Part shown: positions 840-56,107 of the stretch, piece by piece | How positions within the stretch are numbered: the first letter of the stretch is position 1 | Layout: every line of letters starts with the position of its first letter | Virus record (IMG/VR): IMGVR_UViG_3300044638_003984 | Length of the DNA stretch: 64,000 bases | From: a virus | Lineage: Duplodnaviria > Heunggongvirae > Uroviricota > Caudoviricetes | Reading direction: 5' to 3' (one strand) | Position numbers and translations under genes: made by a program | Notes under the pieces: model-generated | Seen by the model: the letters and a program-made list of their open reading frames with translations, nothing else | The model's database searches: none | Told to the model about the DNA's origin: nothing

Positions 840-852
840 AAAAACTTTTGAT

Positions 853-928: not shown

Positions 929-938
929 ATATTAAATT

Positions 939-1013
939 TGGAGCGGCCAGTCAAATTCGAATTGACACCAAGAGTTTGGAAGACTCCTGTGCTACCGTTA
1001 ACACCATGGCCGC
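939..1013 (-). tRNA. tRNA-Gly (anticodon UCC)
   Basis: Acceptor GCGGCCA/TGGCCGC, anticodon loop CUUCCAA, T-arm GTCAA-TTCGAAT-TTGAC, CCA encoded. Confidence 0.75.
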
Positions 1014-1024
1014 ATATAATCTTT

Positions 1025-1101
1025 TGGAGGGTATGTTGAGAATTGAACTCAATCTGAGAGATTCACAGTCTCCCGTGCAAAACCTTAAACACTTCATACC
1101 C
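1025..1101 (-). tRNA. tRNA-His (anticodon GUG)
   Basis: Acceptor GGGTATG/CATACCC, anticodon stem GGAGA/TCTCT with loop CUGUGAA, T-loop TTCAATT, CCA encoded. Confidence 0.7.
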
Positions 1102-1107
1102 AAACTT

Positions 1108-1200
1108 TGGTGCTCCCACCAGGATTCGAACCTGGACCGTGCTCTAATCAGGAGCGAACAGCTTATAAGGCTGCCGTGCTTACCATTACACCATAGGAGC
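1108..1200 (-). tRNA. Atypical 93-nt tRNA with anticodon UAU (AUA-decoding, Ile2-like) and a long type-II-like variable arm, discriminator A73
   Basis: Acceptor GCTCCTA/TGGGAGC, D-arm GTGT-AATGGTAA-GCAC, anticodon stem GCAGC/GCTGT with loop CUUAUAA, 22-nt variable region forming hairpin GCTC-CTGATTA-GAGC, T-arm CCAGG-TTCGAAT-CCTGG, CCA encoded. Confidence 0.55.
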
Positions 1201-1207
1201 AAATTTT

Positions 1208-1281
1208 TGGCTCTCCCGTTCGGATTCGAACCGAAATCGACGGTTTTGGAGACCGTAATGTTACCATTACACCACAGGAGT
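1208..1281 (-). tRNA. tRNA-Trp (anticodon CCA)
   Basis: Anticodon stem ACGGT/ACCGT with loop CUCCAAA, D-stem GTGT/ACAT, T-arm TTCGG-TTCGAAT-CCGAA, CCA encoded; 1:72 A-A mismatch. Confidence 0.7.
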
Positions 1282-1481
1282 ATTATTATTTATAGAACTC
1301 TTTGAGAGACCAGACCTCGAACCTGGATCAGTTAGCTTTGAACTAGCACCCAATTAGTGCCCTGGTTTTTCCTTGTTAAACTATCTCTCGAAATTTAAAT
1401 TAATCAGTATGGATTAATAAGCTATCTTTTTCATCCAATCTTTTCATCTGCTTACTAGATGTTGGACCTACTGATTAAAGT

Positions 1482-1563
1482 TGGTTGCGGAGGTAGGATT
1501 TGAACCTTTTGAGACGTCCTCTTGGTTATGAGCCAAGCGAGCTGACCGCTGCTCTACTCCACA
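1482..1563 (-). tRNA. tRNA-Met/Ile2-like (anticodon CAU), 82 nt with weak T-stem
   Basis: Acceptor TGTGGAG/CTCCGCA plus A73-CCA, D-arm GAGC-AGCGGTCA-GCTC, perfect anticodon stem CTTGG/CCAAG with loop CUCAUAA; T-stem only 3 bp and an extra variable segment containing GACGTC. Confidence 0.5.
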
Positions 1564-1568
1564 ACAAT

Positions 1569-1886
1569 TTAATACGAACTAAACGAAACACTCATTCTTT
1601 CGAAATCAACTTCTTCTGGATTGATTTGTGAAAGATCGAATCCTTCAACTTCAAAAACCTTTTCGGTCAATGTATGTTCCATTCCACAAGATCCATTACA
1701 AGAACAACCTGAGGAATAGCACCACAAAATCTTTCCTTCCGAATTAACTCCAATTCCTTCATAGTCATGGTGGCCGTAACCGTGTTCTTCGTTACAAATT
1801 TCTTTTACAATAACGCATTCCTCATCATCGAATGAAGACTTTGGTAGTGTATTGTAATTTTCAACAACATATTTAATGATATCCAT
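1569..1886 (-). CDS. hypothetical Cys-rich small protein embedded in tRNA array
   Basis: ORF-track ORF of 105 aa with a CYSSGCSCNGSCG cluster; sits between tRNA genes. Confidence 0.45.
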   Translation of the reverse strand: MDIIKYVVENYNTLPKSSFDDEECVIVKEICNEEHGYGHHDYEGIGVNSEGKILWCYSSGCSCNGSCGMEHTLTEKVFEVEGFDLSQINPEEVDFERMSVSFSSY

Positions 1887-1904
1887 TATTCCTCACAAAT
1901 TTTA

Positions 1905-1992
1905 TGGTGGAAGCCGTGAGATTTGAACTCACAATCCCCTTGGGGAAATGGTTTTACAGACCACCGCAGCTAACCGTATCTGCCTGACTTCC
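1905..1992 (-). tRNA. tRNA-Tyr (anticodon GUA), type II
   Basis: Acceptor GGAAGTC/GGCTTCC, anticodon stem GTGGT/ACCAT with loop CUGUAAA, long variable arm with CCCC/GGGG stem, T-arm GTGAG-TTCAAAT-CTCAC, A73-CCA. Confidence 0.8.
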
Positions 1993-1993
1993 A

Positions 1994-2149
1994 TTAATCT
2001 TTTCTAAAAACAAACTCAGTACAATCGCAAGTTAAACATTTCTTTTTGGTGTTTGGTATAATTTTACCACAATCACCTATTGGATATTTATGATCTTTTC
2101 TTTCATGACCGCATATACATGGATCATATTTAGTGCAATTAACTATCAT
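1994..2149 (-). CDS. hypothetical small Cys/His-rich (zinc-ribbon-like) protein
   Basis: The ORF-track ORF 1994-2218 overlaps tRNA-Glu; trimmed to the internal Met (MIVNCTKYDPCICGHERKDH...CLTCDC). Confidence 0.35.
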   Translation of the reverse strand: MIVNCTKYDPCICGHERKDHKYPIGDCGKIIPNTKKKCLTCDCTEFVFRKD

Positions 2150-2188
2150 AGATATACTATAACGTATTTTAGTTTGCTTGTCAATATT

Positions 2189-2265
2189 TGGTATGGTCGA
2201 CGGGATTTGAACCCGCAATCCCCACCTTGAAAGGGTGGTGGCTTAACCAATTTGCCTACGACCAT
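2189..2265 (-). tRNA. tRNA-Glu (anticodon UUC)
   Basis: Acceptor ATGGTCG/CGACCAT, anticodon stem CCACC/GGTGG with loop CUUUCAA, T-arm GCGGG-TTCAAAT-CCCGT, A73-CCA. Confidence 0.75.
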
Positions 2266-2283
2266 ATATGTTTAAATATTTTT

Positions 2284-2361
2284 GGTGGCTCCGCCCGGAT
2301 TCGAACCGGGATCTTATGCTCTTCAGGCATATGCTGCATACCAATCCAGCTACACAGAGCC
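2284..2361 (-). tRNA. tRNA-Phe (anticodon GAA)
   Basis: Acceptor GGCTCTG/CGGAGCC, anticodon stem TATGC/GCATA with loop CUGAAGA, T-arm CCCGG-TTCGAAT-CCGGG, A73-CCA; D-arm pairing imperfect. Confidence 0.65.
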
Positions 2362-2459
2362 ATTAAAATTTTGCGCTTCTCAGTGGATTTCACTATAGTT
2401 CCGAATCTTGACTAGATACCTTGAGCTCAGTATCAATCGCACGTCTATCACTAAGAATT

Positions 2460-2533
2460 TGGTGGAATCTGTCAGAATCGAACTGACATCGCCTGAATGC
2501 AAATCAGGAGTTTTCCCATTAAACTAAGACCCC
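2460..2533 (-). tRNA. tRNA-Ala (anticodon UGC)
   Basis: Acceptor GGGGTCT/AGATTCC with G3:U70 wobble, D-arm GTTT-AATGGGA-AAAC, anticodon stem CCTGA/TCAGG with loop UUUGCAU, T-arm GTCAG-TTCGATT-CTGAC, CCA. Confidence 0.7.
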
Positions 2534-2538
2534 AAAAG

Positions 2539-2612
2539 TGGAGGTTGATTGTAGAATTGAACACCAGATTTTCCGTAGACAACGGAAGGTTTTACCACTA
2601 AACTAACGAACC
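2539..2612 (-). tRNA. tRNA-Asp (anticodon GUC)
   Basis: Acceptor GGTTCGT/ATCAACC, D-arm GTTT-AGTGGTA-AAAC, anticodon stem TTCCG/CGGAA with loop UUGUCUA; T-stem has 2 mismatches. Confidence 0.55.
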
Positions 2613-2629
2613 AACTTACTACATTATTT

Positions 2630-2658
2630 AGTATACTTCTTTTAGAACATTTCGTCAA
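2630..2658 (-). promoter_or_regulatory. sigma70-like promoter (TTGACG-17-TATACT) upstream of tRNA-Asp
   Basis: The reverse complement reads TTGACGaaatgttctaaaagaagTATACT. Confidence 0.5.
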
Positions 2659-2664
2659 ACTCTT

Positions 2665-2838
2665 TTACCATTTTGTTAAAGAAAAAAGAACGATACTACC
2701 ATCACGATCAATACCAAACTGCATATCTTTGAATGTAAAGAACCACACTTCAAACAGATTTGAGTATTCAAGATCTGGAATCACTTCAGATAAACCAATT
2801 TCTTGAAGAGAAGAAATTACATCGTCATTAGGTTTCAT
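2665..2838 (-). CDS. hypothetical 57-aa protein (not in ORF track)
   Basis: ATG preceded by AAGGA Shine-Dalgarno at ~7 nt; translates MKPNDDVISSLQEIGLSEVIPDLEYSNLFEVWFFTFKDMQFGIDRDGSIVLFSLTKW. Confidence 0.35.
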   Translation of the reverse strand: MKPNDDVISSLQEIGLSEVIPDLEYSNLFEVWFFTFKDMQFGIDRDGSIVLFSLTKW

Positions 2839-2858
2839 AATTATCCTTTATTATAACT

Positions 2859-2932
2859 TGGAGCACTGTGATGGAATCGAACCATCGTTAACTGTTTTGC
2901 AGACAGTTACCTAGCCTCTCGGACAACAGTGC
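2859..2932 (-). tRNA. tRNA-Cys (anticodon GCA)
   Basis: Perfect acceptor GCACTGT/ACAGTGC, anticodon stem ACTGT/ACAGT with loop CUGCAAA, T-arm GATGG-TTCGATT-CCATC, CCA. Confidence 0.75.
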
Positions 2933-2942
2933 AAAAATTGTT

Positions 2943-3017
2943 TGGTGGGATCGGTGAGGCTCGAACTCACAACTCCAGACTTAAAAGGTCTGTACTCTAC
3001 CATTGAGTTACGATCCC
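2943..3017 (-). tRNA. tRNA-Lys (anticodon UUU)
   Basis: Acceptor GGGATCG/CGATCCC, D-arm ACTC-AATGGTA-GAGT, anticodon stem CAGAC/GTCTG with loop CUUUUAA, T-arm GTGAG-TTCGAGC-CTCAC, A73-CCA. Confidence 0.8.
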
Positions 3018-3100
3018 AAAATTTCTTTCATCACTTTCACATTTGATATTCACACAAACATTGAACCAACCTGACCATCAGTTTTGGATACTTAAAATTA

Positions 3101-3186
3101 TGGAGGAGGATGATAGCATCGAACTATTATCCCTAGAGATACTACGGTTTTCAAGACCGTGCGGGGAGCCAACCCCAGCATCCTCC
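3101..3186 (-). tRNA. tRNA-Ser (anticodon UGA), type II
   Basis: Acceptor GGAGGAT/ATCCTCC, anticodon stem ACGGT/ACCGT with loop CUUGAAA, long variable arm, CCA. Confidence 0.7.
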
Positions 3187-3192
3187 AATATT

Positions 3193-3267
3193 TGGCTCCC
3201 CGGGCAGGACTCGAACCTACAACATCCTGGTTAACAGCCAAGCGCTCTACCATTGAGCTACCGAGGA
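3193..3267 (-). tRNA. tRNA-Asn (anticodon GUU)
   Basis: Acceptor TCCTCGG/CCGGGGA, D-arm GCTC-AATGGTA-GAGC, anticodon stem CTTGG/CCAGG with loop CUGUUAA, T-arm GTAGG-TTCGAGT-CCTGC, G73-CCA. Confidence 0.75.
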
Positions 3268-3392
3268 ACAACTTAAAAAGGCCCGAACTGGGATCTCACG
3301 GGTATTCTCTGCATGCCGAGTTATTTCCCTATCGTTCCATAGAAGGTAACCATACATAGCACCATTTTCTATTGTCTATCCAGTTCAAAATT

Positions 3393-3476
3393 TGGTAGCC
3401 CTGGGAGGAGTTGAACCTCATGCCGTCCGCCCAACTCTAAGGATCGGTTTAGAAGACCGATGTCGGGTTCAGGGCC
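3393..3476 (-). tRNA. Atypical 84-nt tRNA-like with UCU (Arg) anticodon loop and truncated D-arm
   Basis: Acceptor GGCCCTG/CAGGGCT plus A-CCA, T-loop TTCAACT, perfect hairpin ATCGGT-CTTCTAA-ACCGAT; only ~9 nt where the D-arm should be and a ~23-nt extra segment. Confidence 0.4.
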
Positions 3477-3527
3477 AAAACTTGTAACAAGTGAGAGGAT
3501 CAACTTCATCAACTCAATCACTTATTT

Positions 3528-3556
3528 ATTATACTTCATTTTACTACTTTCGTCAA
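3528..3556 (-). promoter_or_regulatory. consensus sigma70-like promoter (TTGACG-17-TATAAT) heading the tRNA array
   Basis: The reverse complement reads TTGACGaaagtagtaaaatgaagTATAAT. Confidence 0.55.
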
Positions 3557-3560
3557 CCCA

Positions 3561-3635
3561 GGCGATTCTTTACCAAACTGATAGTTCACGCATTGTTCAA
3601 TGAACTTCCATGCGTAGATCAGGATAAAGAATCGC
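3561..3635. repeat. perfect 12-bp inverted repeat GGCGATTCTTTA / TAAAGAATCGCC flanking a 51-nt loop with inner palindrome GTTCAATGAAC
   Basis: Lies between two minus-strand promoters upstream of the tRNA array. Confidence 0.6.
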
Positions 3636-3682
3636 CGATCACTTAATTTAGATATTCAGTTGTCAAAGAACTTTACTTATTT

Positions 3683-3712
3683 AGTTTACTACTTTTTACT
3701 TCTTTTCGTCAA
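3683..3712 (-). promoter_or_regulatory. sigma70-like promoter (TTGACG-18-TAAACT)
   Basis: The reverse complement reads TTGACGaaaagaagtaaaaagtagTAAACT. Confidence 0.4.
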
Positions 3713-3750
3713 GCACTTTTTGTGAATTTTTGTTTCAAAAATTTTTTACA

Positions 3751-3963
3751 TTAATCTTCTTCGGTGTAGAGTTCGATATCTTCACGAAGAATTTTTGTTG
3801 CATGGATAGGTTCATCAGTCTGATCTACTCCGATAGCCCAAATTTCTTCATTGATTTCAACTACACGCCAACCAGTCCATTTCATTTCACGACAAGGTTC
3901 AACTCCTCCAATAACTTTTGTCTGTTTCTCATAATACGCATTCATTACTTCATTTTCAGTCAT
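3751..3963 (-). CDS. hypothetical protein (70 aa)
   Basis: ORF track; compact minus-strand operon of small genes. Confidence 0.4.
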   Translation of the reverse strand: MTENEVMNAYYEKQTKVIGGVEPCREMKWTGWRVVEINEEIWAIGVDQTDEPIHATKILREDIELYTEED

Positions 3964-3972
3964 TTGTAATCC

Positions 3973-4170
3973 TTAAAAGAATCGAACGGTTCGGAGATTG
4001 TATTCATCGCAAGTTAGAATTCCGAGATTCGTTTCGACGACAAAATTCTCGCCATCGAAGGATACGCAATAATCTGTAACAGAACCAGAGAATCGAACCA
4101 ATTGTCCGATCCTAGCAGCCCGAACCTGATCATCAGTAATTTCGAACCACGGCGCACTTGCCATTTCCAT
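3973..4170 (-). CDS. hypothetical protein (65 aa)
   Basis: ORF track. Confidence 0.4.
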   Translation of the reverse strand: MEMASAPWFEITDDQVRAARIGQLVRFSGSVTDYCVSFDGENFVVETNLGILTCDEYNLRTVRFF

Positions 4171-10417: not shown

Positions 10418-11072
10418 ATGTTATTCCTTTCAAATTATAAATTAAGTCATTATCTATGATAAAATCTACACCATCGAATTTTAGATATTTATCAAAAATA
10501 TCTTCGGCATTAACAACATCTTTAATTAATTCTTCTGTATAAAACGATTCATCCGGAACACATCTAGACATAGTTTCATAATCACCATAGAAAAATATAT
10601 CACTGGGAAACCCATTTATTGGAGATCGTTTTCCATAAATTTTTCCAGTTTGTATTTCTTTTCTAAGATCTATATTAATAGAATTTAAATCGAATCTACT
10701 TCTAACAACAACATCATATGATGTATTTGTGTAACTAATACATTGTTTAATCTTTTTGAACATCAATAGAGTATTCAATGCATTAACTGAGTGTGGAGAA
10801 TTAGGCAATATTATATCAAAAGAAGACAAATAATTGTATTTAGATCTATCTTCTATATCGAAAAATTTTGGATTATAATTAGCATTTAAGATATCAGAAT
10901 CAATTAAATCACATTCTTCACGTTCACCTTTCCAAAAAGAGCAATCTATTCCCGATTTAGTCCATGTAGATAAAAAGAAATCTGATTTTAATTCAGAAAA
11001 ATATACACTCGGCTGACTTAATTCATTCTGAAATTCTCTTACGTGACCTGAAATACAATATGCAATTTTCAT
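10410..11072 (-). CDS. hypothetical protein in glycan island
   Basis: ORF track. Confidence 0.45.
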   Translation of the reverse strand: MKIAYCISGHVREFQNELSQPSVYFSELKSDFFLSTWTKSGIDCSFWKGEREECDLIDSDILNANYNPKFFDIEDRSKYNYLSSFDIILPNSPHSVNALNTLLMFKKIKQCISYTNTSYDVVVRSRFDLNSINIDLRKEIQTGKIYGKRSPINGFPSDIFFYGDYETMSRCVPDESFYTEELIKDVVNAEDIFDKYLKFDGVDFIIDNDLIYNLKGITYG

Positions 11073-11665
11073 ATTCTTTTGAAGTGTACGTCCGCTTCTT
11101 TATTAACATTATCAGGAATAACTTGACAAGAAAATCCATTATCATTTAAGAACTGCACAATATCTTCTACTCTATTAGAAGTTCCTGTATATAATTCTAC
11201 AGTATATGATCCTTCACACTTACCTTCTCTTACTATGTTAATTCTATTTCCTAAACTCTGCAATACTCTGAAATCGTTTCCTTGCGCATCTATCCACAAA
11301 TAATCTATATCTAATATAGATTCACTTTCTATTATAGAATCCAATCTCTTCTTTTCTACTAGACAAGACTCAGTGAAACTGAAATCTGGTCTGTTTTCCC
11401 AAAGTTCATGAATATTTTCACTGAATTTATATAGAGAAGAACATCCCCAATCTCCACTACCAGCTATATTAAATTCTGATATTCCTTCTTCAACATCTAT
11501 CGCATAAGGATAAATTTTAATATTTGAATAATGTTTGAAATTATTCGTTAGATCTGAGAATAATTTTGGTGTTGGTTCGAAAGCGAAGACAACATTATTC
11601 TCATTATCAGCAAATCTTTTCGTGTCTAGACCTAAATTTGCTCCGACTTCAAATATTATATTCAT
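11069..11665 (-). CDS. FkbM-family methyltransferase
   Basis: N-terminal FEVGANLGLDT...VFAFEPTP pattern of FkbM SAM-dependent methyltransferases. Confidence 0.55.
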   Translation of the reverse strand: MNIIFEVGANLGLDTKRFADNENNVVFAFEPTPKLFSDLTNNFKHYSNIKIYPYAIDVEEGISEFNIAGSGDWGCSSLYKFSENIHELWENRPDFSFTESCLVEKKRLDSIIESESILDIDYLWIDAQGNDFRVLQSLGNRINIVREGKCEGSYTVELYTGTSNRVEDIVQFLNDNGFSCQVIPDNVNKEADVHFKRI

Positions 11666-48602: not shown

Positions 48603-48788
48603 ATGAAGAAATCAATTTACAAAAGAAATATTGGGTCTAGGTCTTGGTCTGGGTCTAGGTCTTGGTCTTGGTCTGGGTCTTGGTCTGGGTCTTGGTCTGA
48701 GTCTAGGTCTAGGTCTGAGTCTAGGTCTAGGTCTGAGTCTAGGTCTGGGTCTGGGTCTGGGTCTTGGTCTTGGTCTAGGTCTAACTAA
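48603..48788 (+). CDS. putative Ser-X dipeptide-repeat mini-protein, unit 1 (MKKSIYKRNIG-(S-R/W/G/E)n-N)
   Basis: ATG-headed frame through the (TCTNGG)n array ends at TAA directly after the array; no RBS. Confidence 0.25.
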   Translation: MKKSIYKRNIGSRSWSGSRSWSWSGSWSGSWSESRSRSESRSRSESRSGSGSGSWSWSRSN

Positions 48789-48792
48789 AAAT

Positions 48793-49035
48793 ATGATAAA
48801 GAAATCAATTTACAAAAGAAATATTGGGTCTTGGTCTAGGTCTGGGTCTAGGTCTGGGTCTGAGTCTAGGTCTGAGTCTTGGTCTTGGTCTGGGTCTGAG
48901 TCTAGGTCTGAGTCTGGGTCTTGGTCTAGGTCTTGGTCTGAGTCTTGGTCTAGGTCTGGGTCTGGGTCTAGGTCTAGGTCTAGGTTTAGGTCTGGGTCTA
49001 GGTCTAGGTTTAGGTTTAGGTCTGGGTCTAACTAA
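48793..49035 (+). CDS. putative Ser-X dipeptide-repeat mini-protein, unit 2
   Basis: Same architecture as unit 1; 80 aa. Confidence 0.25.
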   Translation: MIKKSIYKRNIGSWSRSGSRSGSESRSESWSWSGSESRSESGSWSRSWSESWSRSGSGSRSRSRFRSGSRSRFRFRSGSN

Positions 49036-49039
49036 AAAT

Positions 49040-49264
49040 ATGATAAAGAAATCAATTTACAAAAGAATTATTTGGTCTAGGTCTGGGTCTGAGTCTGGGT
49101 CTAGGTCTTGGTCTGAGTCTGGGTCTTGGTCTTGGTCTTGGTCTTGGTCTGAGTCTTGGTCTGGGTCTAGGTCTTGGTCTGGGTCTGGGTCTTGGTCTTG
49201 GTCTGGGTCTGAGTCTGGGTCTTGGTCTAGGTCTAGGTCTGGGTCTAGGTCTGGGTCTAACTAA
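49040..49264 (+). CDS. putative Ser-X dipeptide-repeat mini-protein, unit 3
   Basis: Same architecture; 74 aa; followed by a 4th header with no array (11-codon ORF). Confidence 0.25.
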   Translation: MIKKSIYKRIIWSRSGSESGSRSWSESGSWSWSWSWSESWSGSRSWSGSGSWSWSGSESGSWSRSRSGSRSGSN

Positions 49265-49346: not shown

Positions 49347-51572
49347 ATGATTATTTCACATTCTCCTGATAATAATGTTGTTCTTTCTTCTATTGATAGA
49401 ACAGATGAATTTAAAATCAAGAATTCTTCGAAAGCATTCTCGATTTTAAGTTCTGGTTTATATGCAAATAAGATTAAAGCGATTATTCGAGAACTTTCTT
49501 GTAATGCTTATGATTCGCATGTGGCAGCAGGAAAGAAGGATATTCCGTTTGACGTACACCTTCCTAATCGTATTGAACCATGGTTCTCTATTCGTGATTA
49601 TGGAACTGGTCTAGATGACACACAAGTGAAATCTATCTATACAACTTATTTCGAATCAACGAAAACGCATTCGAATGAATTCGTTGGTGCACTTGGACTT
49701 GGTTCCAAATCACCATTCAGTTATACTGAAAACTTCAGCATCACTACGATTAAGAACGGTAAGTGTTGGATTTTTAGTGCGTTCGTGAATGAACATGGCA
49801 TCCCTTCCATTGCGTCTATGGGAGTTTCTGATACGACAGAACCGAACGGCGTTGAGATTAAATTTTCAGTAGATAACCAAGACGATATCGTTAAGTTTGT
49901 CACAGAAGCTCCTAACGTATTTATCTGGTTCGAGACACAACCAAATATCTCCGGTAATAGAGAGTATACATTATCTTTCGATTACGTCGTTAAAAGAGAA
50001 AAGAATTACGAAGAACAGAATATCATACCAGGAATTCATGTATTATCTACAAGAGGTTATGGTACTAGTAAAGCTCTGATGGGAAATATCTGTTATCCTA
50101 TTGATGTTCCAAACGCAAAAACGAATTTAACGGATAAACTGCATTCTTTACTATCCAATAATCTTGTAATGGAATTCAATATTGGAGAATTAGATTTCCA
50201 AGCTTCTCGAGAAGGTTTGGCTTACACTCCGTTGACTATTTCTTCAATCAAGAATAAACTTCAAAAGTTAAGTGATTCATTGTACTGTATTCTAGATGAA
50301 CAAGCTAAACAACACAATCATAATTCTTGGTTTCTTGCAGATTTCTTAGTTAATAAAAATTCTCTTCCTATTTGGAAGATGACTGTGACAGAATATGTAA
50401 ATAATAATAACTTAAATGTTGTCGCAATTAACAAATACAATAATTTACATGAAATCTATTACAATGTAATTTCTATTTCGCGAGAAAAGTGTTCTGAATT
50501 CAATATTTCAATTAATTCTTTCGAAAAGGATTCGTATTCTGGAAGAACTAGAAGATATGATCTAAATAACTCTGGCATTAATATGTATCAAACATGTTCA
50601 AAATACAAGTTCATTATTAATGATACGACTATTGGTGCTGGAGAAAGATGTAAACGATATATCGATAATCTAGAAACAGGACACAAGATAAAGAAATTTA
50701 TCCTTTTACAGAAAATCGATAAAGATAAAGATATGAATCTTGAAGAATTCTTCAAGTCAATAAGTAATCCACCAGATGATATTATCATAAATGTTTCTAC
50801 CCTTCCGGAATTGGAAAAGAAAAAGAGAACCAAAGATGTAACAGTTGTTAAAATACAAGAAGATAATAGAAAATATTACAATCCAAATTATACTTGGAAA
50901 GAATGTGGTAAATTACAAGATCTAAATAACACGACGAATACCATGTATTATATTCCTCTTTCTGGGTATAATGTTATTTCAAATTACACTACTGACTTTA
51001 AAGGAGTCTATAAATTATTGAAAGAATGTGGTTTTTTTGGACCGATTGGTTCACGTATGACTATTTATGGAATCAGAAAAGGGGATATTGAATCACTTTC
51101 GAATTATCCAAATTGGATAAATATTGAACGTGTTATTATCGATAAATTACAATCCGAAAAAGAATCCATTAAGAATCGAATTTATGCAGATTTGAATATT
51201 GACTGCATCAATAAATTCAAGTATAATAAAAATATATTGGATAAATTGAATGATAATTCTCCATTCAAGAAAGTTGTTCAAGAATTCAATATAACAAATA
51301 ATTCGAAAAACAACAAACCAGGTTCAATTAATTCCTATATGATGTTGGCGAATATATATTCCAACGATAATATCTATAAAGAATTAAAGGAATTCCAGTT
51401 GGCGGCAGAAACTAAAGTGCAAACAATTTTAAATAGATATCCATTATTACGTTATATGGTTGATATTGATTCTTATTTGTTTGAAACAGACAAAAATAGA
51501 TATGATGTATTTGCAGGATACATTAATTTAATTGACGATCAGAAAAAGGAGTTAACATGTTCCCTTACTTAA
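49347..51572 (+). CDS. rIIA: rIIA protein (GHKL-ATPase-like N-terminus)
   Basis: SKAFSILSSGLYANKIKAIIRELSCNAYDSH and FVGALGLGSKSPFSYTENFSITT blocks match T4 rIIA. Confidence 0.9.
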   Translation: MIISHSPDNNVVLSSIDRTDEFKIKNSSKAFSILSSGLYANKIKAIIRELSCNAYDSHVAAGKKDIPFDVHLPNRIEPWFSIRDYGTGLDDTQVKSIYTTYFESTKTHSNEFVGALGLGSKSPFSYTENFSITTIKNGKCWIFSAFVNEHGIPSIASMGVSDTTEPNGVEIKFSVDNQDDIVKFVTEAPNVFIWFETQPNISGNREYTLSFDYVVKREKNYEEQNIIPGIHVLSTRGYGTSKALMGNICYPIDVPNAKTNLTDKLHSLLSNNLVMEFNIGELDFQASREGLAYTPLTISSIKNKLQKLSDSLYCILDEQAKQHNHNSWFLADFLVNKNSLPIWKMTVTEYVNNNNLNVVAINKYNNLHEIYYNVISISREKCSEFNISINSFEKDSYSGRTRRYDLNNSGINMYQTCSKYKFIINDTTIGAGERCKRYIDNLETGHKIKKFILLQKIDKDKDMNLEEFFKSISNPPDDIIINVSTLPELEKKKRTKDVTVVKIQEDNRKYYNPNYTWKECGKLQDLNNTTNTMYYIPLSGYNVISNYTTDFKGVYKLLKECGFFGPIGSRMTIYGIRKGDIESLSNYPNWINIERVIIDKLQSEKESIKNRIYADLNIDCINKFKYNKNILDKLNDNSPFKKVVQEFNITNNSKNNKPGSINSYMMLANIYSNDNIYKELKEFQLAAETKVQTILNRYPLLRYMVDIDSYLFETDKNRYDVFAGYINLIDDQKKELTCSLT

Positions 51573-52318
51573 TTCAAGGTTCTAACATTATTATTGTGAT
51601 TGGGTCGAAGACTCATACAATCAACAAACAACATCTTTCTTATAACAAGATTGTAGATGCCATCAAGACAAGCGATTGGGATACTGTGAAGGATCTCATT
51701 GAACCAAAGAAAGCCATTCTGAAGTATGGTGCTGGGAATATCTCAATCCAAGGTGACAAGATCTTCTGGAAGGATGAGGAGTTCACTAATTATTTATCAG
51801 ATAAGATTGTTTCTATGTTCCAAGAAGGATTTCCAATTGAACCGATGGTTCTATTTATGGAGAATCTAATGAAGAATCCATCGAAGCGTGCAGTTAACGA
51901 ACTGTATGGTTTCTTGGAAAAGGGGAAAATGCCTATTACTTCAGATGGTTGTTTCCTTGCTTACAAGCGTGTCCGTTCTGATTATAAAGACGTACATAGC
52001 GGAACATTCGATAATTCAGTAGGCAAGATCGTTCAGATGGAACGAAATAAAGTAGACGACGACAAGGATCGAACTTGTTCCAGCGGTTTACATTTCTGTT
52101 CTGAAGAATATCTAAAGCATTTCTCTGGTGAACGAATTATGATCTTGAAGATTAATCCACGTGATGTGGTTTCAATTCCTGCAGATTATAATGATTCTAA
52201 GGGTCGATGCTGCCGTTATGAAGTTATCGGAGAACTTGGAGCCGAAACGAATCCTAAGGATGCTTTCCAAGAGCCAGTACAAGATAATGGTATTGGTATC
52301 TGGATTGAAGTTGGGTAA
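51557..52318 (+). CDS. rIIB: rIIB protein
   Basis: MENLMKNPSKRAVNELYGFL, GCFLAYKRVRSDYKDVHSGTFDNSVGKIVQM and CSSGLHFCSEEYLKHF...PRDVVSIPADYNDSKGRCCRYEV blocks match T4 rIIB. Confidence 0.9.
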   Translation: MFPYLIQGSNIIIVIGSKTHTINKQHLSYNKIVDAIKTSDWDTVKDLIEPKKAILKYGAGNISIQGDKIFWKDEEFTNYLSDKIVSMFQEGFPIEPMVLFMENLMKNPSKRAVNELYGFLEKGKMPITSDGCFLAYKRVRSDYKDVHSGTFDNSVGKIVQMERNKVDDDKDRTCSSGLHFCSEEYLKHFSGERIMILKINPRDVVSIPADYNDSKGRCCRYEVIGELGAETNPKDAFQEPVQDNGIGIWIEVG

Positions 52319-52326
52319 AAGATATT

Positions 52327-52401
52327 GCGCTTGTAGCATAATGGTAATGTAGAAGATTCTAAACCTTCGAGATGAGAGTTCGATTCTCTCCAAGCGCACC
52401 A
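52327..52401 (+). tRNA. amber suppressor tRNA (anticodon CUA), 75 nt, CCA encoded
   Basis: Cloverleaf GCGCTTG-TA-GCAT-AATGGTA-ATGT-A-GAAGA-TTCTAAA-CCTTC-GAGAT-GAGAG-TTCGATT-CTCTC-CAAGCGC-A-CCA; anticodon loop positions 34-36 = CTA. Confidence 0.7.
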
Positions 52402-52451
52402 AATTAAAAGAGGAATATATGACATAGAAGACTAAAATTAAGTGTGAATAT

Positions 52452-52673
52452 TTGATTTTTCACTTCAATAAGAAACATCTTGAAGATCCTTCCATTCCAA
52501 TGTGGTCGATCAAAGCAAAAGGTGAAACTTATTATGTGAAGCATGTAGATTGTGCTCTACCATGGAGCACAAAAGAAACTCCTGATAATCCTCATACAAA
52601 AGGATCTATCAAAATCAAAAATTGTACTTTGACAATAGACTATCTAGATAATGCTTATATAACGGGAGAGTAA
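52452..52673 (+). CDS. hypothetical protein; in frame with upstream RBS-ATG-ACA-TAG at 52419 (amber at codon 3)
   Basis: ORF-track ORF starts at TTG. The only strong SD (AAGAGGA, 52408-52414) precedes the ATG at 52419, followed by ACA TAG and then the same reading frame. Confidence 0.4.
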   Translation: MIFHFNKKHLEDPSIPMWSIKAKGETYYVKHVDCALPWSTKETPDNPHTKGSIKIKNCTLTIDYLDNAYITGE

Positions 52674-52694
52674 AATCTCCCGTTTCATTTTTTT
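52663..52694 (+). terminator. intrinsic terminator (CGGGAGA stem, U-rich tail) overlapping the stop codon
   Basis: CGGGAGAG-TAAAA-TCTCCCG then TTTCATTTTTTT. Confidence 0.65.
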
Positions 52695-52720: not shown

Positions 52721-52951
52721 ATGTTCACAATTAATTCAGCAACCAATCCTAATGATCGAAATCTTAATAATTATTATCTAAAACATTTTAAAAATAATAA
52801 TAAATTGTCTCAAGAATTGAAGAAACAAATAACACCAAAACTTATTTCTGATGCTATCAAAGAAGCAATATCACAATCAAAAAAAACCAAGGACAAGGGA
52901 TATAAATTAGAATTCACAATCGACGGTATAAAACCCGTAGAGGAACAGTAA
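52721..52951 (+). CDS. hypothetical late protein (76 aa)
   Basis: ORF track; late promoter upstream. Confidence 0.5.
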   Translation: MFTINSATNPNDRNLNNYYLKHFKNNNKLSQELKKQITPKLISDAIKEAISQSKKTKDKGYKLEFTIDGIKPVEEQ

Positions 52952-53943
52952 TGTTATCTTTTAAATCTTTTCTTATACTAGAAGGTGGCGTCGGGGGCCA
53001 CATGGCGCATGTTTTTGACATATCTTCAACTGGAAAAGAATTGATTGGAGTATTTAAGGAAGCAATCAAATTCATCAATTCTGGTAAGACATCTGTTAAG
53101 ATAGATGGAATCAATGCTTCACTTCGTTTGGTTGAAGGAAAATTTGTTCTAGATCGTGGTTCGGCAAAGCCTTTGGATATTAAAGGAATTCGTCCAGAAG
53201 ATTTGGAAGATAGATTTGGACAAGGACATGGATTTGTTGAAAAAGGAAAGAAGATAATTGACATTTTTGACACAGCTTATCCGAAAATTAAGCCAGAATT
53301 GGAGAAACTTGGTCTTTTAAATAATCCTAATATCTTATTCAATACTGAGTATGTTGAAGGTAAGACTAATGTTGTTCAATATGAAGGAATCGATAATTTC
53401 TTAGCAATCCATGGATTAAAAGAAATTAAGGTTAATAAGACAAATCCAAAGACTGGCGTTGTTACATCAAGAGTAGCTTCCAATATTTCATTCGATCAAA
53501 CAACAATGGCTTCTCTTATCAAGAAATTAGATGAAGTTGCAAAAGCTTTTGGATTTAAAGTTCTCGGTAATGTTGGTGTAACATTCAAAGAGAACCCTGA
53601 TTTAACCAAGGTTTTATCAGAAGAGATTACTCTAAACGAACAAACTAAAACGCTTGGAGAATGGTTATCTAATCTGACATTTAAGACTCCTCTAATTACA
53701 AGAGCAAAATTCATCCAAATTATGAACTCAGATAAGAAAGATCTTACTGAGAAACAACTTACAGATTATCTAGTTTATATTGCAACTATTCGCCTTGGTG
53801 ATGAAATTCTTAATAGTTCAACTTCAGATCTAGGCGATCTTAAAGGTCAAGAAGGAATCGTCATAAGAAGATCTGATAATTCTTTATACAAAATAACTGG
53901 ATCGTTTATTCTTCGTGGATTAGAATCTACATTTGGAAAGTAA
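52951..53943 (+). CDS. hypothetical protein (330 aa); N-terminus MLSFKSFL resembles that of the GH19 lysin gene
   Basis: ORF track. Confidence 0.5.
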   Translation: MLSFKSFLILEGGVGGHMAHVFDISSTGKELIGVFKEAIKFINSGKTSVKIDGINASLRLVEGKFVLDRGSAKPLDIKGIRPEDLEDRFGQGHGFVEKGKKIIDIFDTAYPKIKPELEKLGLLNNPNILFNTEYVEGKTNVVQYEGIDNFLAIHGLKEIKVNKTNPKTGVVTSRVASNISFDQTTMASLIKKLDEVAKAFGFKVLGNVGVTFKENPDLTKVLSEEITLNEQTKTLGEWLSNLTFKTPLITRAKFIQIMNSDKKDLTEKQLTDYLVYIATIRLGDEILNSSTSDLGDLKGQEGIVIRRSDNSLYKITGSFILRGLESTFGK

Positions 53944-56107
53944 TATGTCTAAGAAATATTTCGCACGTCTATCTAAGTCTACAGCTACTAAAAGAAAAAC
54001 ATTCTGGAAGAAACTTGGTTCTTATCCGTTCACTAAAGATGAGTATGATCGTGCGGAAAAAGTTCCTGGAGATGCGAAGTCTGAGACAAGACCATCGCAA
54101 TATAATAAGAAGTATAGAGAAATGTATGAAGCAGTACATAATGAAGCTCCTTATCTAAAATGGGGTATTATTTCTCCAACTGGTAAAGTTATTTCTGGCG
54201 ATGAATATAAAAGTAGTGATAATTTGAATCATGCATCATTTCTTGTCAGACTTGGGTTAGAAAAAGAATACGATCTAAATGGGAAAAATTCGAACTATTC
54301 AAGATATGCTATTTTGAAGGATGTCTATGGATTAACCTCAATAATAACCATACCAGGTCGTGCAAAAATTGATTCTGTTATAAAAGCATGGAAAAATATT
54401 CCGATGGGAGATGATATATTAATCTTACTTAGTAAGTATAATGATGATGAATATGAAGGTCCTTCATCTAAAGCTCTATCGTGGTTAAAACAATATAAAT
54501 CAAAAGTACAAGAAGAATATGACGAAATCAGTGAATCCAGATCAATCAAGGCGCTTCAAAAGAAAGCAAAAGCTTCTGGTGTTCCTTATTCTATCTTGAA
54601 GCGAGTTTATAATCGTGGTATGGCTGCTTGGGTTACAGGACACAGACCAGGTGCAACACAATCTGCTTGGGCATTTGCAAGAGTCAATTCGTTCCTAACA
54701 AAAGGAAAGACTTGGTATGGGCCAGATGCAGATCTCGCGAAGAAAGCAAGAAAGTATCTACAAGAAGCTCATTTTATACCACAATATTTTGATTGGGGCT
54801 GGATTGATGATCGTGGAAATATTCAATATCCAGAAGAGCATGATAGAACACATACATCTATTCTAAGAAGATTAACAGAAAAACAACCTGAATATAATTT
54901 GGGCGATAGGCCAACAGAAACTGATGCAACAAAACAAGGTTGGATTCGTTGGGTAGTTGAATACAGCAATTCTGAATTTGTTTTATTTTTCAATACAAAG
55001 AAATTGATTAAAACGATAAAGATGTATAGATCTATAGAAAATATTGTAAATAAACATAAAGATTCGTCATATATTTCATTTGATTTGCCTAGAAAATTTA
55101 TACAATCTAGAACGAGGAACGAATTCATGTTAGAGCTATCTAAGGTATTTGGAATAAAAGAAGATCAAGATTACGAAATAGAAATGATTTCTGGACAATT
55201 AAAGAAAATTATAGATCTATCTACAGATACCTTGAATATTATCCAGAATCAGTCAGAAATTCCTGCATGGATTCAAGATAAGATCTCAGTTTCTACTCAT
55301 AACGCAGAAGCAATATTTGATTACTACAATTATTCGGAAGAAAAGATTCAAGAAGAAACGCAGATGAAGAAAGTTGTCATATTTCCAGGTGGTTTCCATC
55401 CATTCCATAAAGGCCATTATTCGGTTTATACTGCAATCAAAAAGAAATTTCCAGATGCAGATGTATATGTTGCTTCAACAAACGAACAAACCGAAAGACC
55501 ATTTTCATTTGAAGATAAAAAATATCTAGCAAGTCAACTAGGAGTTCCTGAGAAATCATTCGTTGAAGTAAAGATTCCATATGTTGCTACAGAGATTACA
55601 CGGAAATATGATAAAAAGAATACGATAGTTATCTTTGCTATTTCTGGAAAAGATCCAGATAGAATCTCTTACACAAAGAAAGATGGTACACCAGGATACT
55701 TTGCAGAATGGACTGGTGAAAATGTCGAACCATTTGAATCAAAAGGATATATCTTTATTACACCAAAGGTAGATTTTAAGATTGCAGGTAAACAAGTTGA
55801 TTCTGCTTCAATGATTAGAAAAATGTATAAAGAAGCTGATGATTCAGAAAAGAATCAAATTATCAAAGATATGTATCCTGGTGGTGATGTCAAAAATATT
55901 AAAAAAATCTTAGACAATAATTTGATAGATTCTACACAAGAATCAGTAGAAATTATTTCTGAAACTATCAGATGCAGTAAGAAGACTGGTAAGAATATCT
56001 GTTTCGTATTCTCTAAAAAGGGTAAGAAGATGGGTGGTCCATATTCTGAAACGAAAGCCAAGAAAAGACTCAGACAAATTGAATTCTTCAAACATTTAAA
56101 TAAATAA
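53933..56107 (+). CDS. large protein with C-terminal NMN/NaMN-adenylyltransferase-like (HxGH cytidylyltransferase-fold) domain
   Basis: VVIFPGGFHPFHKGHYSVY (H/T-x-G-H nucleotidyltransferase motif) around residue 480; N-terminal ~450 aa unrecognised. Confidence 0.5.
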   Translation: MESNMSKKYFARLSKSTATKRKTFWKKLGSYPFTKDEYDRAEKVPGDAKSETRPSQYNKKYREMYEAVHNEAPYLKWGIISPTGKVISGDEYKSSDNLNHASFLVRLGLEKEYDLNGKNSNYSRYAILKDVYGLTSIITIPGRAKIDSVIKAWKNIPMGDDILILLSKYNDDEYEGPSSKALSWLKQYKSKVQEEYDEISESRSIKALQKKAKASGVPYSILKRVYNRGMAAWVTGHRPGATQSAWAFARVNSFLTKGKTWYGPDADLAKKARKYLQEAHFIPQYFDWGWIDDRGNIQYPEEHDRTHTSILRRLTEKQPEYNLGDRPTETDATKQGWIRWVVEYSNSEFVLFFNTKKLIKTIKMYRSIENIVNKHKDSSYISFDLPRKFIQSRTRNEFMLELSKVFGIKEDQDYEIEMISGQLKKIIDLSTDTLNIIQNQSEIPAWIQDKISVSTHNAEAIFDYYNYSEEKIQEETQMKKVVIFPGGFHPFHKGHYSVYTAIKKKFPDADVYVASTNEQTERPFSFEDKKYLASQLGVPEKSFVEVKIPYVATEITRKYDKKNTIVIFAISGKDPDRISYTKKDGTPGYFAEWTGENVEPFESKGYIFITPKVDFKIAGKQVDSASMIRKMYKEADDSEKNQIIKDMYPGGDVKNIKKILDNNLIDSTQESVEIISETIRCSKKTGKNICFVFSKKGKKMGGPYSETKAKKRLRQIEFFKHLNK

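What the first reader, a model, noticed from the sequence alone, without database searches (positions are those of the whole stretch)
52408..52673. Gene with strong RBS whose third codon is TAG, 17 nt downstream of the suppressor tRNA
AAGAGGA, then 4 nt, then ATG ACA TAG, continues in frame (33 nt) into the ORF-track ORF 52452-52673. Neither the TTG at 52452 nor the next ATG (52500) has a Shine-Dalgarno sequence. Expression of the 85-aa product would depend on amber suppression by the adjacent tRNA, a self-contained suppressor/target pair. Otherwise the locus encodes a 2-codon mini-ORF.
Basis: partly seen in the sequence, partly recalled or inferred. Interest (0 to 1): 0.7.

Follow-up and report, generated by a model that had tools for sequence, protein, structure and literature searches.

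The report
Phage gene gated by its own suppressor tRNA
A phage carries a tRNA that reads the stop codon UAG and, 17 bases downstream, a small gene whose third codon is UAG; this pairing recurs in more than a hundred related phage sequences, so the protein is probably made only when the phage's own tRNA is working.

Summary
A canonical tRNA with anticodon CUA lies at 52327-52401. It is followed by AAGAGGA, ATG (52419), ACA and TAG (52425), in frame with a conserved ORF that ends at TAA 52671-73. The product is 84 aa, not 85.

- The protein belongs to a phage-only family with no Pfam or PHROG entry.
- Of 112 distinct family genes, 86 start ATG, 1-6 codons, then TAG. TAG is the third codon in 62, and a purine follows TAG in 85 of 86.
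- 82 of 112 have a tRNA(CUA) within 4 kb, always on the same strand. It is often the only tRNA there.
- Equivalent TGA or TAA leaders are absent.
- A second family (PTH2 peptidyl-tRNA hydrolase), often the upstream neighbour in other loci, carries the same leader in 31 of 38 cases.

The window uses the standard code, and 52425 is its only such site. In the complete genome of the cultured Rhizobium phage RHph_I1_18, the unannotated homologue next to its tRNA(CUA) is the only credible target.

Best reading: a co-transcribed suppressor tRNA licenses translation of an amber-gated gene, a natural feed-forward gate. The protein's function, the amino acid inserted and any expression in vivo are untested.

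The parts
51557..52318 (+). rIIB-like gene directly upstream (stop TAA 52316-18, 8 nt before the tRNA). Context: probably the same transcription unit as rIIA-like 49347-51572.
   Evidence: blastn hits to annotated rIIB genes of Xanthomonas, Proteus, Morganella and Stenotrophomonas phages. ORF list. No terminator-like site between it and the tRNA.
52327..52401 (+). Amber suppressor tRNA gene, anticodon CUA, encoded CCA end, discriminator A73.
   Evidence: ARAGORN. Rfam RF00005 at 64 bits, E 1e-12, with alignment. Cloverleaf in the MFE fold. Most similar window tRNA is Lys(UUU).
52408..52414 (+). Shine-Dalgarno sequence AAGAGGA. The GAGG core is 5 nt before the ATG.
   Evidence: Sequence. The same AAGGAG-type motif 6-8 nt before the leader ATG appears in most homologues.
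52419..52427 (+). Leader ATG ACA TAG: start codon, one sense codon, then an in-frame amber codon as codon 3, followed by A (AAG).
   Evidence: Sequence. Leader conserved in 86 of 112 distinct homologues; base after TAG is A in 75 and G in 10 of 86. TGA and TAA controls.
52419..52673 (+). Amber-gated gene: 84-aa product MT-X-KTKIKCEYLIFHFNKKHLEDPSIPMW...ITGE of a phage-restricted family without Pfam or PHROG entry (short form, all-beta domain). Stop is TAA 52671-73.
   Evidence: Translation. Homologues. Alignments A1-A3. AlphaFold model, pLDDT 90.
52452..52454 (+). TTG, the only canonical alternative start between the TAG and the conserved motif. No SD upstream. This is the start used by the standard-code gene call (P0001, 73 aa).
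   Evidence: ORF list. Sequence. P0001 begins LIFHFNK.
52661..52694 (+). Terminator-like hairpin (9 pairs) plus T-run, overlapping the stop codon. Probable end of the transcription unit.
   Evidence: scan_promoters_terminators. Hairpin also present in the MFE fold.

Best explanation
The window comes from a T4-like or large phage that uses the standard genetic code. It carries a two-part translational gate.

Anatomy:
- A phage tRNA with anticodon CUA sits at the end of the rIIA-rIIB-like unit.
- 17 nt downstream, with no terminator in between, a small gene starts with a good ribosome-binding site, ATG, one sense codon and then UAG.

Proposed mechanism:
- Ribosomes initiate at 52419.
- At codon 3 the outcome is a competition between host release factor 1, or drop-off of the dipeptidyl-tRNA, and the phage suppressor tRNA.
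- Only decoding by the suppressor gives the 84-aa protein. Failure costs a dipeptide.
- Because tRNA and mRNA are made from the same transcript, the arrangement is a coherent feed-forward (AND) gate. Protein output follows the amount of mature, charged suppressor tRNA, not transcription alone.

What is shown:
- the anatomy;
- its deep conservation;
- its restriction to TAG;
- its near-restriction to the first 2-7 codons;
- the specific linkage to tRNA(CUA);
- the same leader on a second, unrelated neighbouring gene family (PTH2 peptidyl-tRNA hydrolase) in other phages.

What is inferred:
- that suppression happens in vivo;
- the residue inserted. Lys or Gln is likely from what is known of E. 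coli tRNA identity (A73, U35). The position lies in a variable leader, so the identity probably does not matter;
- the purpose. The most likely purpose is to tie proteins that act on translation or tRNA (PTH2 and this partner protein of unknown activity) to the presence of the suppressor, with a delay or threshold in timing.
For: The tRNA and the leader in the window:
- The tRNA is canonical.
- The leader anatomy is as described.

The window is not recoded:
- ORFs of at least 100 aa under code 11 cover 87% of it.
- TAG terminates 8 of 64 long ORFs.
- 52425 is the only leader-type TAG site.

Family survey (IMG/VR loci; analysis):
- 86 of 112 distinct genes have ATG, 1-6 codons, then TAG.
- tRNA(cta) lies within 4 kb in 82 of 112, always on the same strand (68 upstream, 17 downstream), median distance 510 nt.
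- It is the only tRNA in 40 loci and the nearest tRNA in 63.

Evidence that the upstream ATG is the start:
- 42 of 79 leader-bearing loci have no alternative start codon.
- The nearest SD-ATG is in frame in 67 of 68.

Stop-codon specificity: 126 TAG leaders against 10 TGA and 13 TAA.

Gene-call evidence:
- Database 'Q' residues at this position are TAG in the DNA.
- About 30 of 150 family representatives are truncated at the internal Met.

Other supporting loci:
- PTH2 genes (Pfam PF01981, above the gathering threshold) directly upstream carry the leader in 31 of 38 loci.
- In L055 a TAG at the domain junction separates the short form from the long form.
- In the complete RHph_I1_18 genome, the only credible target lies 12 nt from its tRNA(cta) and is unannotated.

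No RNA structure follows the TAG (mean z -0.09, n=86), as expected for tRNA-dependent rather than structure-stimulated read-through.

An engineered circuit of the same logic works in E. coli (PMC7969014).
Against: - There are no expression, proteomic or aminoacylation data.
- In the window a TTG (52452) could start a 73-aa product that keeps the conserved body. 37 of 79 loci also have some in-frame ATG/GTG/TTG just before the motif.
- With 10-kb flanks, 13 of 49 distinct leader-bearing loci show no ARAGORN tRNA(cta). Some of these have odd tRNA-like genes with a UUCUAA loop, and one tested has no Rfam hit.
- The codon after TAG is ATT in 54 of 86. This could hint at re-initiation at AUU. The window has AAG there.
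- TAG is a genuine stop of several window genes, so an efficient suppressor has a cost.
- Counts are of distinct sequences, not independent evolutionary events. The loci are the best 80 hits of each of two searches.
Confidence: 0.8

Rival explanations
1. ATG-ACA-TAG is a real two-codon upstream mini-ORF. The protein is started downstream, at TTG 52452 in the window or at the codon after TAG elsewhere, by coupling or re-initiation. The tRNA(CUA) sits nearby for unrelated reasons.
For: - TTG at 52452 exists and is the start used by the standard-code gene call.
- 37 of 79 loci have an in-frame ATG/GTG/TTG just before the motif.
- ATT follows TAG in 54 of 86 leaders. From general knowledge, AUU can serve as a weak start, as in infC.
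Against: - A mini-ORF would work with any stop codon, yet leaders are TAG 126 times against 10 TGA and 13 TAA, and the latter are mostly shadows inside other genes.
- 42 of 79 loci have no canonical start after the TAG.
- The window has AAG after TAG and no SD before the TTG.
- The specific linkage to a CUA tRNA (82 of 112 against at most 24 of 112 for any other anticodon) would be left unexplained.
Confidence: 0.1
2. UAG is decoded by the phage tRNA, but the leader has no regulatory role. It is a near-neutral dependency (ratchet) that arose once a suppressor was present, or an early step towards stop-codon reassignment.
For: - The leader lies in a poorly conserved N-terminal stretch where any residue may be tolerated (alignment).
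- Some members have lost the leader (26 of 112).
- Published work proposes that acquiring a suppressor tRNA precedes recoding in phages (bioRxiv 10.1101/2021.08.26.457843).
Against: - Neutral TAGs should scatter over tolerant positions and over many genes. Here they sit in codons 2-7 of two unrelated families, plus once at a domain junction.
- No other credible TAG-interrupted ORF was found in the 64-kb window or in the 171-kb RHph_I1_18 genome.
- The +4 purine context is kept in 85 of 86 leaders.
- The leader persists across genes only 46-98% identical.
Confidence: 0.15
3. The phage uses a reassigned code (TAG as a sense codon, code 15) throughout or in a block, and this gene is just one recoded gene.
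For: - A CUA suppressor tRNA is present.
- Gene callers translated family members with code 15.
Against: - Standard-code ORFs of at least 100 aa cover 87% of the window.
- Long genes (741, 724, 1005 aa) contain no TAG.
- TAG ends 8 of 64 long ORFs, some directly followed by the next gene.
- There is only one leader-type TAG in 64 kb.
- The same picture holds in the complete RHph_I1_18 genome.
Confidence: 0.03
4. The gene is a pseudogene or an assembly error, or the UAG encodes pyrrolysine (ARAGORN labels the tRNA 'Pyl').
For: An in-frame stop is the usual mark of a pseudogene. The ARAGORN label.
Against: - The same TAG occurs in 86 distinct sequences from independent samples, with an intact, strongly conserved body.
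- ARAGORN names any CUA tRNA 'Pyl'.
- This tRNA fits the general tRNA model with normal D and T loops and a normal anticodon stem. From general knowledge, tRNA-Pyl does not.
- The codon lies in a variable leader, not at a functional site.
Confidence: 0.02

Closest known systems
Stop-codon-recoded phages with suppressor tRNAs (crAss-like, Lak and others; TAG read as Gln, code 15)
   Same: A phage-encoded CUA tRNA decodes in-frame TAG in phage genes while the host uses the standard code. Timing control of translation has been proposed for these phages (bioRxiv 10.1101/2021.08.26.457843).
   Different: In those phages many genes, especially late and lysis genes, carry TAGs scattered through their bodies, and standard-code coding density is low. 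Here the genome is standard-code. TAG is still used as a stop. The in-frame TAG is confined to codons 2-7 of one gene (two families across related phages), next to the tRNA.
Synthetic suppressor-tRNA coherent feed-forward loop ('leak dampener', Ho et al. 2021, PMC7969014)
   Same: One promoter drives both a suppressor tRNA and a gene carrying stop codons, so the protein appears only when the tRNA has accumulated. The window has the same wiring: tRNA and amber-bearing gene adjacent, on the same strand, with a terminator only after the gene.
   Different: That circuit is engineered in E. coli with a Leu suppressor and a ribozyme. This one is natural, conserved and phage-borne, and its purpose is unknown.
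Autoregulation of release factor 2 (prfB) through an early in-frame UGA (my own knowledge)
   Same: An early in-frame stop codon in a translation-related gene acts as a sensor of the balance between termination and an alternative decoding event.
   Different: prfB uses a +1 frameshift and senses its own product. Here the alternative event is decoding by a dedicated tRNA. It is not known whether the product feeds back on termination.
Orphan CUA suppressor tRNAs of large standard-code phages, e.g. Xanthomonas jumbo phage XacN1 (PMC5852040)
   Same: A large phage with many tRNAs, standard code and CUA suppressor tRNAs.
   Different: [quoted passage not shown] Here the target is found, at the 5' end of a gene that standard annotation misses or truncates. 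XacN1 itself was not examined.
Two-codon minigenes such as the lambda bar minigenes, and their link to peptidyl-tRNA hydrolase (my own knowledge)
   Same: Without suppression the leader is a strong-SD two-codon ORF. In other loci the neighbouring gene is a peptidyl-tRNA hydrolase (PTH2).
   Different: bar minigenes end in any stop codon and have no downstream in-frame gene. Here the stop is always TAG, in frame with a conserved protein, and linked to a suppressor tRNA.

Membership tests
tRNA (Rfam RF00005), amber suppressor | Cloverleaf that fits the tRNA covariance model above the gathering score | tested here: met
   64 bits against a gathering score of 29, E 1e-12, full-length match 1-71. 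ARAGORN call.
tRNA (Rfam RF00005), amber suppressor | Anticodon CUA in a 7-nt loop, with U33 before it and a purine at 37 | tested here: met
   Loop UUCUAAA in the Rfam alignment. 41 distinct homologous-context CUA tRNAs share CUCUAAA or UUCUAAA.
tRNA (Rfam RF00005), amber suppressor | Is processed, aminoacylated and decodes UAG in vivo | not testable with these tools
   Needs tRNA sequencing or an acylation assay, and a reporter or proteomic test.
Genome-wide TAG reassignment (code 15 phage) | Many genes interrupted by in-frame TAG, and low coding density under the standard code | tested here: not met
   87% of the window is covered by standard-code ORFs of at least 100 aa. One leader-type TAG in 64 kb. 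One in the 171-kb RHph_I1_18 genome.
Genome-wide TAG reassignment (code 15 phage) | TAG no longer used as a terminator | tested here: not met
   8 of 64 long ORFs in the window end in TAG. 23 of 207 long open frames in RHph_I1_18 do.
Pyrrolysine system | tRNA-Pyl architecture (atypical D and T loops, elongated anticodon stem), plus pylS and pylBCD | tested here: not met
   The tRNA has canonical loops and fits the general model. The pyl genes were not searched for explicitly. The defining features of tRNA-Pyl are from my own knowledge.
FHFNKKHL-motif phage protein family (unnamed; no Pfam or PHROG) | Conserved body FHFNKxHL..P.W..K..G.TYYV.H....STKETPDNP.TKGS.K.K | tested here: met
   phmmer E 2e-45 to 1e-20 for the best 120 homologues listed. 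Invariant columns in A1 and A2. 155 clusters at 50% identity. No Pfam, PHROG, NCBIfam or PADLOC hit.
FHFNKKHL-motif phage protein family (unnamed; no Pfam or PHROG) | N-terminal leader of ATG, 1-6 codons, then TAG | tested here: met
   In the window TAG is codon 3. 86 of 112 distinct members have the leader.
Peptidyl-tRNA hydrolase PTH2 (PF01981), second member of the module in other phages | A PTH2 gene present next to the tRNA or the gene | tested here: not met
   No tblastn hit in the window at E 1e-3. Present in 38 of 112 related loci, 31 of them with the TAG leader.
Structure-stimulated programmed read-through (viral type) | A conserved stimulatory RNA structure just 3' of the stop codon | tested here: not met
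   The 60 nt after the TAG fold no better than shuffles: mean z -0.09 over 86 leaders, window z -1.05.

The most novel reading that the evidence does not exclude
Standard-code phages carry a small tRNA-based regulon. A dedicated amber suppressor tRNA licenses a private set of genes that bear a UAG within their first few codons: this unnamed family and a PTH2 peptidyl-tRNA hydrolase. It would act as a natural translational AND gate or timer for proteins that act on translation. It could also be the seed from which full TAG reassignment in phages evolves, and it would explain the 'orphan' suppressor tRNAs of large phages.
Probability: 0.45. Interest if true: 0.9.

Novelty: new variant of a known kind. 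Interest (0 to 1): 0.8.

Why it matters
- It gives a concrete, conserved target for phage-encoded amber suppressor tRNAs in genomes that are not recoded. For at least one jumbo phage this question was left open in the literature.
- It shows a natural counterpart of an engineered suppressor-tRNA feed-forward gate.
- It exposes a systematic annotation failure. Genes of this family are missed, as in RHph_I1_18. Or they are truncated at an internal Met. Or they are silently translated with Q under code 15.
- It links a suppressor tRNA, a peptidyl-tRNA hydrolase and an unknown all-beta protein into one module, which points to an unexplored piece of phage control over host translation.
- It offers a plausible intermediate on the path to stop-codon reassignment.
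- A cultured phage and host (RHph_I1_18 on Rhizobium phaseoli) carries the pair, so the idea can be tested directly.

Tried and rejected
Searches for the protein's function that gave nothing usable:
- PHROGs, Pfam, NCBIfam and PADLOC gave no family.
- A profile against PDB sequences gave only noise.
- BFVD returned only uncharacterised phage proteins.
- The AFDB50 library was unavailable.
- Conserved protein-coding neighbours: none besides PTH2. Neighbours are peroxiredoxins, ATP-grasp proteins, homing endonucleases and rIIA/rIIB in different lineages.

An inference I withdrew: I first read the TAG as aligning with a conserved Gln in database homologues. The DNA of P0122 and P0114 shows TAG there, so the Q is a code-15 gene-calling artefact.

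Tests that did not discriminate or found nothing:
- Comparing ORF coverage under code 11 and code 15 on 8-kb loci is not discriminating, because removing a stop always lengthens spurious ORFs.
- A read-through-stimulating hairpin after the TAG: none.
- The tRNA-like gene called Arg(tct) upstream of the leader gene in L007 and L008 could be a CUA tRNA in another register, but it has no Rfam tRNA hit. This is left open.
- The bacterial and archaeal genome scan gave only 6 hits, all on MAG contigs. The family is not a prophage or cellular family.
- Literature searches found no description of N-terminal amber leaders next to phage suppressor tRNAs. The library lacks most subscription journals, so this is not proof of novelty.

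Full report
**1. The observation**

- ARAGORN finds one tRNA on the + strand at 52327-52401 with anticodon CUA.
- The Rfam tRNA model matches it over its full length at 64 bits (gathering score 29, E 1e-12). It has an ordinary D loop (G18G19), T loop (GTTCGA), U33, A37 and an encoded CCA.
- After 6 nt comes AAGAGGA (52408-14), then ATAT, ATG (52419), ACA and TAG (52425-27).
- The frame then runs open to TAA at 52671-73, through the TTG at 52452 that the mechanical ORF list uses as the start.
- The read-through product is 84 residues, not 85.
- The TTG at 52452 and the ATG at 52500 have no purine-rich SD. The ATG would also delete the family's best-conserved motif.

**2. Setting in the window**

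- The window is 34% G+C. It carries a 17-tRNA array at 762-3267 on the other strand.
- The two ORFs upstream are rIIA- and rIIB-like, so this is a T4-like or large lytic phage.
- The rIIB-like gene stops 8 nt before the tRNA.
- No promoter- or terminator-like site separates rIIB, the tRNA and the gene.
- A 9-pair hairpin with a T-run (52661-52694) overlaps the gene's stop codon.
- tRNA and gene are therefore most simply read as the 3' end of one transcription unit. This is an inference.

The window is not recoded.
- Standard-code ORFs of at least 100 aa cover 87% of it.
- The longest genes contain no TAG.
- TAG ends 8 of 64 long ORFs.
- 52425 is the only place in 64 kb where SD, ATG, up to 8 codons, TAG and at least 60 open codons occur outside another gene's shadow.

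**3. The protein family**

- The 81 residues after the TAG belong to a large family. An exhaustive profile search of 1.84 billion representatives finds 155 clusters at 50% identity.
- There is no Pfam, PHROG, NCBIfam or PADLOC model.
- It is essentially absent from 185,579 bacterial and archaeal species genomes: 6 hits, all on MAG contigs.
- The body (FHFNKKHL..P.W..K..G.TYYV.H...STKETPDNP.TKGS.K.K) is very well conserved. The 8-13 residues before it are not.
- Three architectures exist:
  - short, about 85 aa, as in the window;
  - long, about 170-205 aa, with a ferredoxin-like C-domain and an acidic tail;
  - a C-terminal fusion in the jumbo phages Atu_ph07 and Phosso.
- AlphaFold models are confident (pLDDT 90 and 84).
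- The biochemical function is unknown.

**4. The leader is conserved**

I fetched 80 + 80 loci from IMG/VR and reduced them to 112 distinct gene sequences. The results are unless stated.
- 86 of 112 begin with ATG, 1-6 sense codons and TAG, in frame with the body. TAG is codon 3 in 62.
- The consensus is AAGGAG, N6-8, ATG, NCN, TAG, ATT, GAA.
- The base after TAG is A in 75, G in 10 and C in 1. From my own knowledge, a 3' purine, especially A, is the context that favours amber suppression in E. coli.
- In 42 of 79 leader-bearing loci there is no ATG, GTG or TTG between the TAG and the motif.
- Where an SD-ATG can be found in the 75 nt upstream, it is in frame with the body in 67 of 68 cases.
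- The same search for SD, ATG, 1-6 codons, a stop, and at least 50 open codons finds 126 TAG cases against 10 TGA and 13 TAA. The TGA and TAA cases are mostly antisense or out-of-frame shadows.
- Apart from the leader, I saw only one TAG inside a family gene. In L055, which has no leader, a TAG followed by ATT GAA sits exactly between the N-domain and a C-domain. Read-through there would turn the short form into the long form.

**5. A correction to my own reading**

- Many database homologues read M-x-Q-I..., and I first took the TAG to replace a conserved Gln.
- The contigs encoding P0122 and P0114 have TAG at that codon, and the tool reports 'translates_to_query: no'.
- Those proteins were called with code 15, so the Q carries no information.
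- About 30 of the 150 representatives start at the internal Met of ..PMW... These are standard-code calls truncated by the TAG.
- In the cultured Rhizobium phage RHph_I1_18 the gene is not annotated at all.

**6. Linkage to the suppressor tRNA**

- A tRNA(cta) lies within 4 kb in 82 of 112 distinct loci, always on the gene's strand: 68 upstream and 17 downstream, median 510 nt.
- In several distinct lineages it ends about 15-25 nt before the ATG, as in the window.
- It is the only tRNA in the flanks of 40 loci and the nearest tRNA in 63. The next most frequent anticodon (gca) is present in 24.
- The 41 distinct CUA tRNAs are diverse in sequence. They share G1-C72, A73 or G73, the loop YUCUAAA and an encoded CCA.
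- The window's is most like its own tRNA-Lys(UUU). That is a weak hint that it is charged with Lys.
- The linkage is not universal. With 10-kb flanks, 13 of 49 leader-bearing loci have no ARAGORN tRNA(cta). Some of these have odd tRNA-like genes with a UUCUAA loop directly upstream. One I tested has no Rfam hit.

**7. A second amber-gated family**

- 21 of the 26 family genes without a leader still have a tRNA(cta) nearby.
- In many of these the gene between the tRNA and the family gene is a PTH2-type peptidyl-tRNA hydrolase: PF01981 at 37.8, 29.6 and 60.6 bits against a cut-off of 23.
- That PTH2 gene itself starts M-x(1-3)-TAG-I.
- Over the 112 loci, 38 have a PTH2 gene, usually ending a few tens of nt before the family gene. 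31 of those carry the leader. 101 loci have at least one amber-gated gene.
- The window has no PTH2.
- In Phosso and Atu_ph07 a PTH2 gene lies two genes upstream of the fused homologue, without a convincing leader.
- Homing-endonuclease ORFs inserted beside the gene sometimes carry a duplicated 'MA*IEY' leader.

**8. A complete genome**

RHph_I1_18 (MN988519, 170,978 bp, T4-like, densely annotated under the standard code) has one tRNA(cta) at 10911-10988.
- The family gene (MSEFM-TAG-NESCREVIFHFNK...) lies at 11000-11248, 12 nt from the tRNA, in an unannotated gap. It has no canonical start between the TAG and the motif.
- A relaxed genome-wide search gives 5 TAG candidates, and only this one is a credible gene. 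The controls give 13 TGA and 4 TAA.
- There, as in the window, suppressor and target form a self-contained pair.

**9. Mechanism**

- The best-supported reading is that the UAG is decoded by the phage's own tRNA, so synthesis of the protein is conditional on that tRNA.
- Because the two are co-transcribed, the wiring is a coherent feed-forward gate, like an engineered E. coli circuit (PMC7969014).
- Placing the stop at codon 2-7 makes failure cheap (a di- to hexapeptide). From my own knowledge of minigene work, it also puts the competition where release is comparatively inefficient.
- No RNA structure follows the TAG. That fits tRNA-dependent rather than structure-stimulated read-through.
- The purpose is inferred. 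The two gated families travel with the tRNA, and one is a peptidyl-tRNA hydrolase. I therefore think the gate ties translation-maintenance proteins to the presence and level of the suppressor, with a built-in delay or threshold.
- A neutral 'ratchet' origin cannot be excluded. It fits poorly with the positional restriction, the kept +4 purine and the recurrence in two unrelated families.

**10. Rivals**

- Downstream initiation after a two-codon mini-ORF does not explain the exclusive use of TAG or the tRNA linkage. It is impossible with canonical starts in 42 of 79 loci.
- Genome-wide recoding is excluded for the window and for RHph_I1_18.
- Pseudogene, sequencing error and pyrrolysine are excluded by conservation and by the ordinary tRNA structure.

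**11. Known or new**

- The literature I could search describes suppressor tRNAs in recoded gut phages. It notes orphan suppressors in standard-code jumbo phages; for XacN1 the authors could not find targets.
- I found no report of N-terminal amber leaders next to the tRNA. The library is incomplete.
- I class it as a new variant of a known kind: amber suppression used as gene control, in a new, conserved, cis-linked architecture.

**12. Caveats**

- Everything rests on sequence comparison.
- The loci are the best hits of two searches and are phylogenetically related. The counts describe distinct sequences, not independent events.
- tRNAs were called with ARAGORN only.
- The protein's function and the inserted residue are unknown.

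Noticed in passing
L085-L124 (e.g. L089 3651-3980; L113 about 3660-4005): PTH2-type peptidyl-tRNA hydrolase genes directly upstream of the family gene start M-x(1-3)-TAG-I, the same amber leader. In L089 both leaders share the 12 nt TAGATTAACAAA.
   Followed up: yes
L055 4022-4258 and the 200 nt beyond: This family gene has no N-terminal TAG. It ends its N-domain at TAG-ATT-GAA, followed in frame by a stretch homologous to the long-form C-domain. Read-through would switch the short isoform to the long one. A tRNA(cta) lies 1.1 kb upstream.
   Followed up: partly
L084-L088 (contigs encoding P0122 and P0114): Database proteins of this family show Q at codon 3 because they were called with code 15; the DNA has TAG. 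Other entries are truncated at the internal Met or at a TTG/GTG. In Rhizobium phage RHph_I1_18 (MN988519 11000-11248) the gene is unannotated.
   Followed up: yes
L006, L017, L061, L062 (about 3317-3980); L004 3232; L022, L025, L026: GIY-YIG and HNH homing-endonuclease ORFs inserted just upstream of the family gene begin with a copy of its leader (MA-TAG-IEY...). One group has MS-TAA-IEQ. This looks like insertion next to the leader, with duplication of it.
   Followed up: no
L007 87-161; L008 3613-3687; L228 9729-9805: tRNA-like genes sit directly upstream of leader-bearing genes in loci that lack a called tRNA(cta). ARAGORN calls them Arg(tct) or '???', but the loops read UUCUAAC or CCCUAAC. 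The L008 copy has an odd T loop and no Rfam tRNA hit. They may be suppressors in another register.
   Followed up: partly
window 762-3267 (- strand): An array of 17 tRNA genes. Two calls are over-long (Ile(tat) 93 nt at 1108-1200; Asn(att) 91 nt at 1301-1391) and may hold inserts or be miscalls. No tRNA-Gln is in the visible part.
   Followed up: no
window 48631-49264, 49158-49191: Two overlapping ORFs contain a direct repeat about 229 nt apart and a run of GGTCT-type short repeats. The terminator scan picked this run up as a hairpin.
   Followed up: no
window 53933-56107: A 724-aa ORF with DUF5824 (68 bits) and a weak cytidylyltransferase-like match around the GGFHPFHKGH motif. The 330-aa ORF before it (52951-53943) and the rIIA- and rIIB-like ORFs have no Pfam hit.
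   Followed up: partly
L002 372-866 (Sinorhizobium phage Phosso): The annotated peptidyl-tRNA hydrolase gene has an in-frame upstream SD-ATG-AAA-TAT-TAG, about 50 codons before its annotated start. It is unclear whether this is a leader or chance.
   Followed up: no
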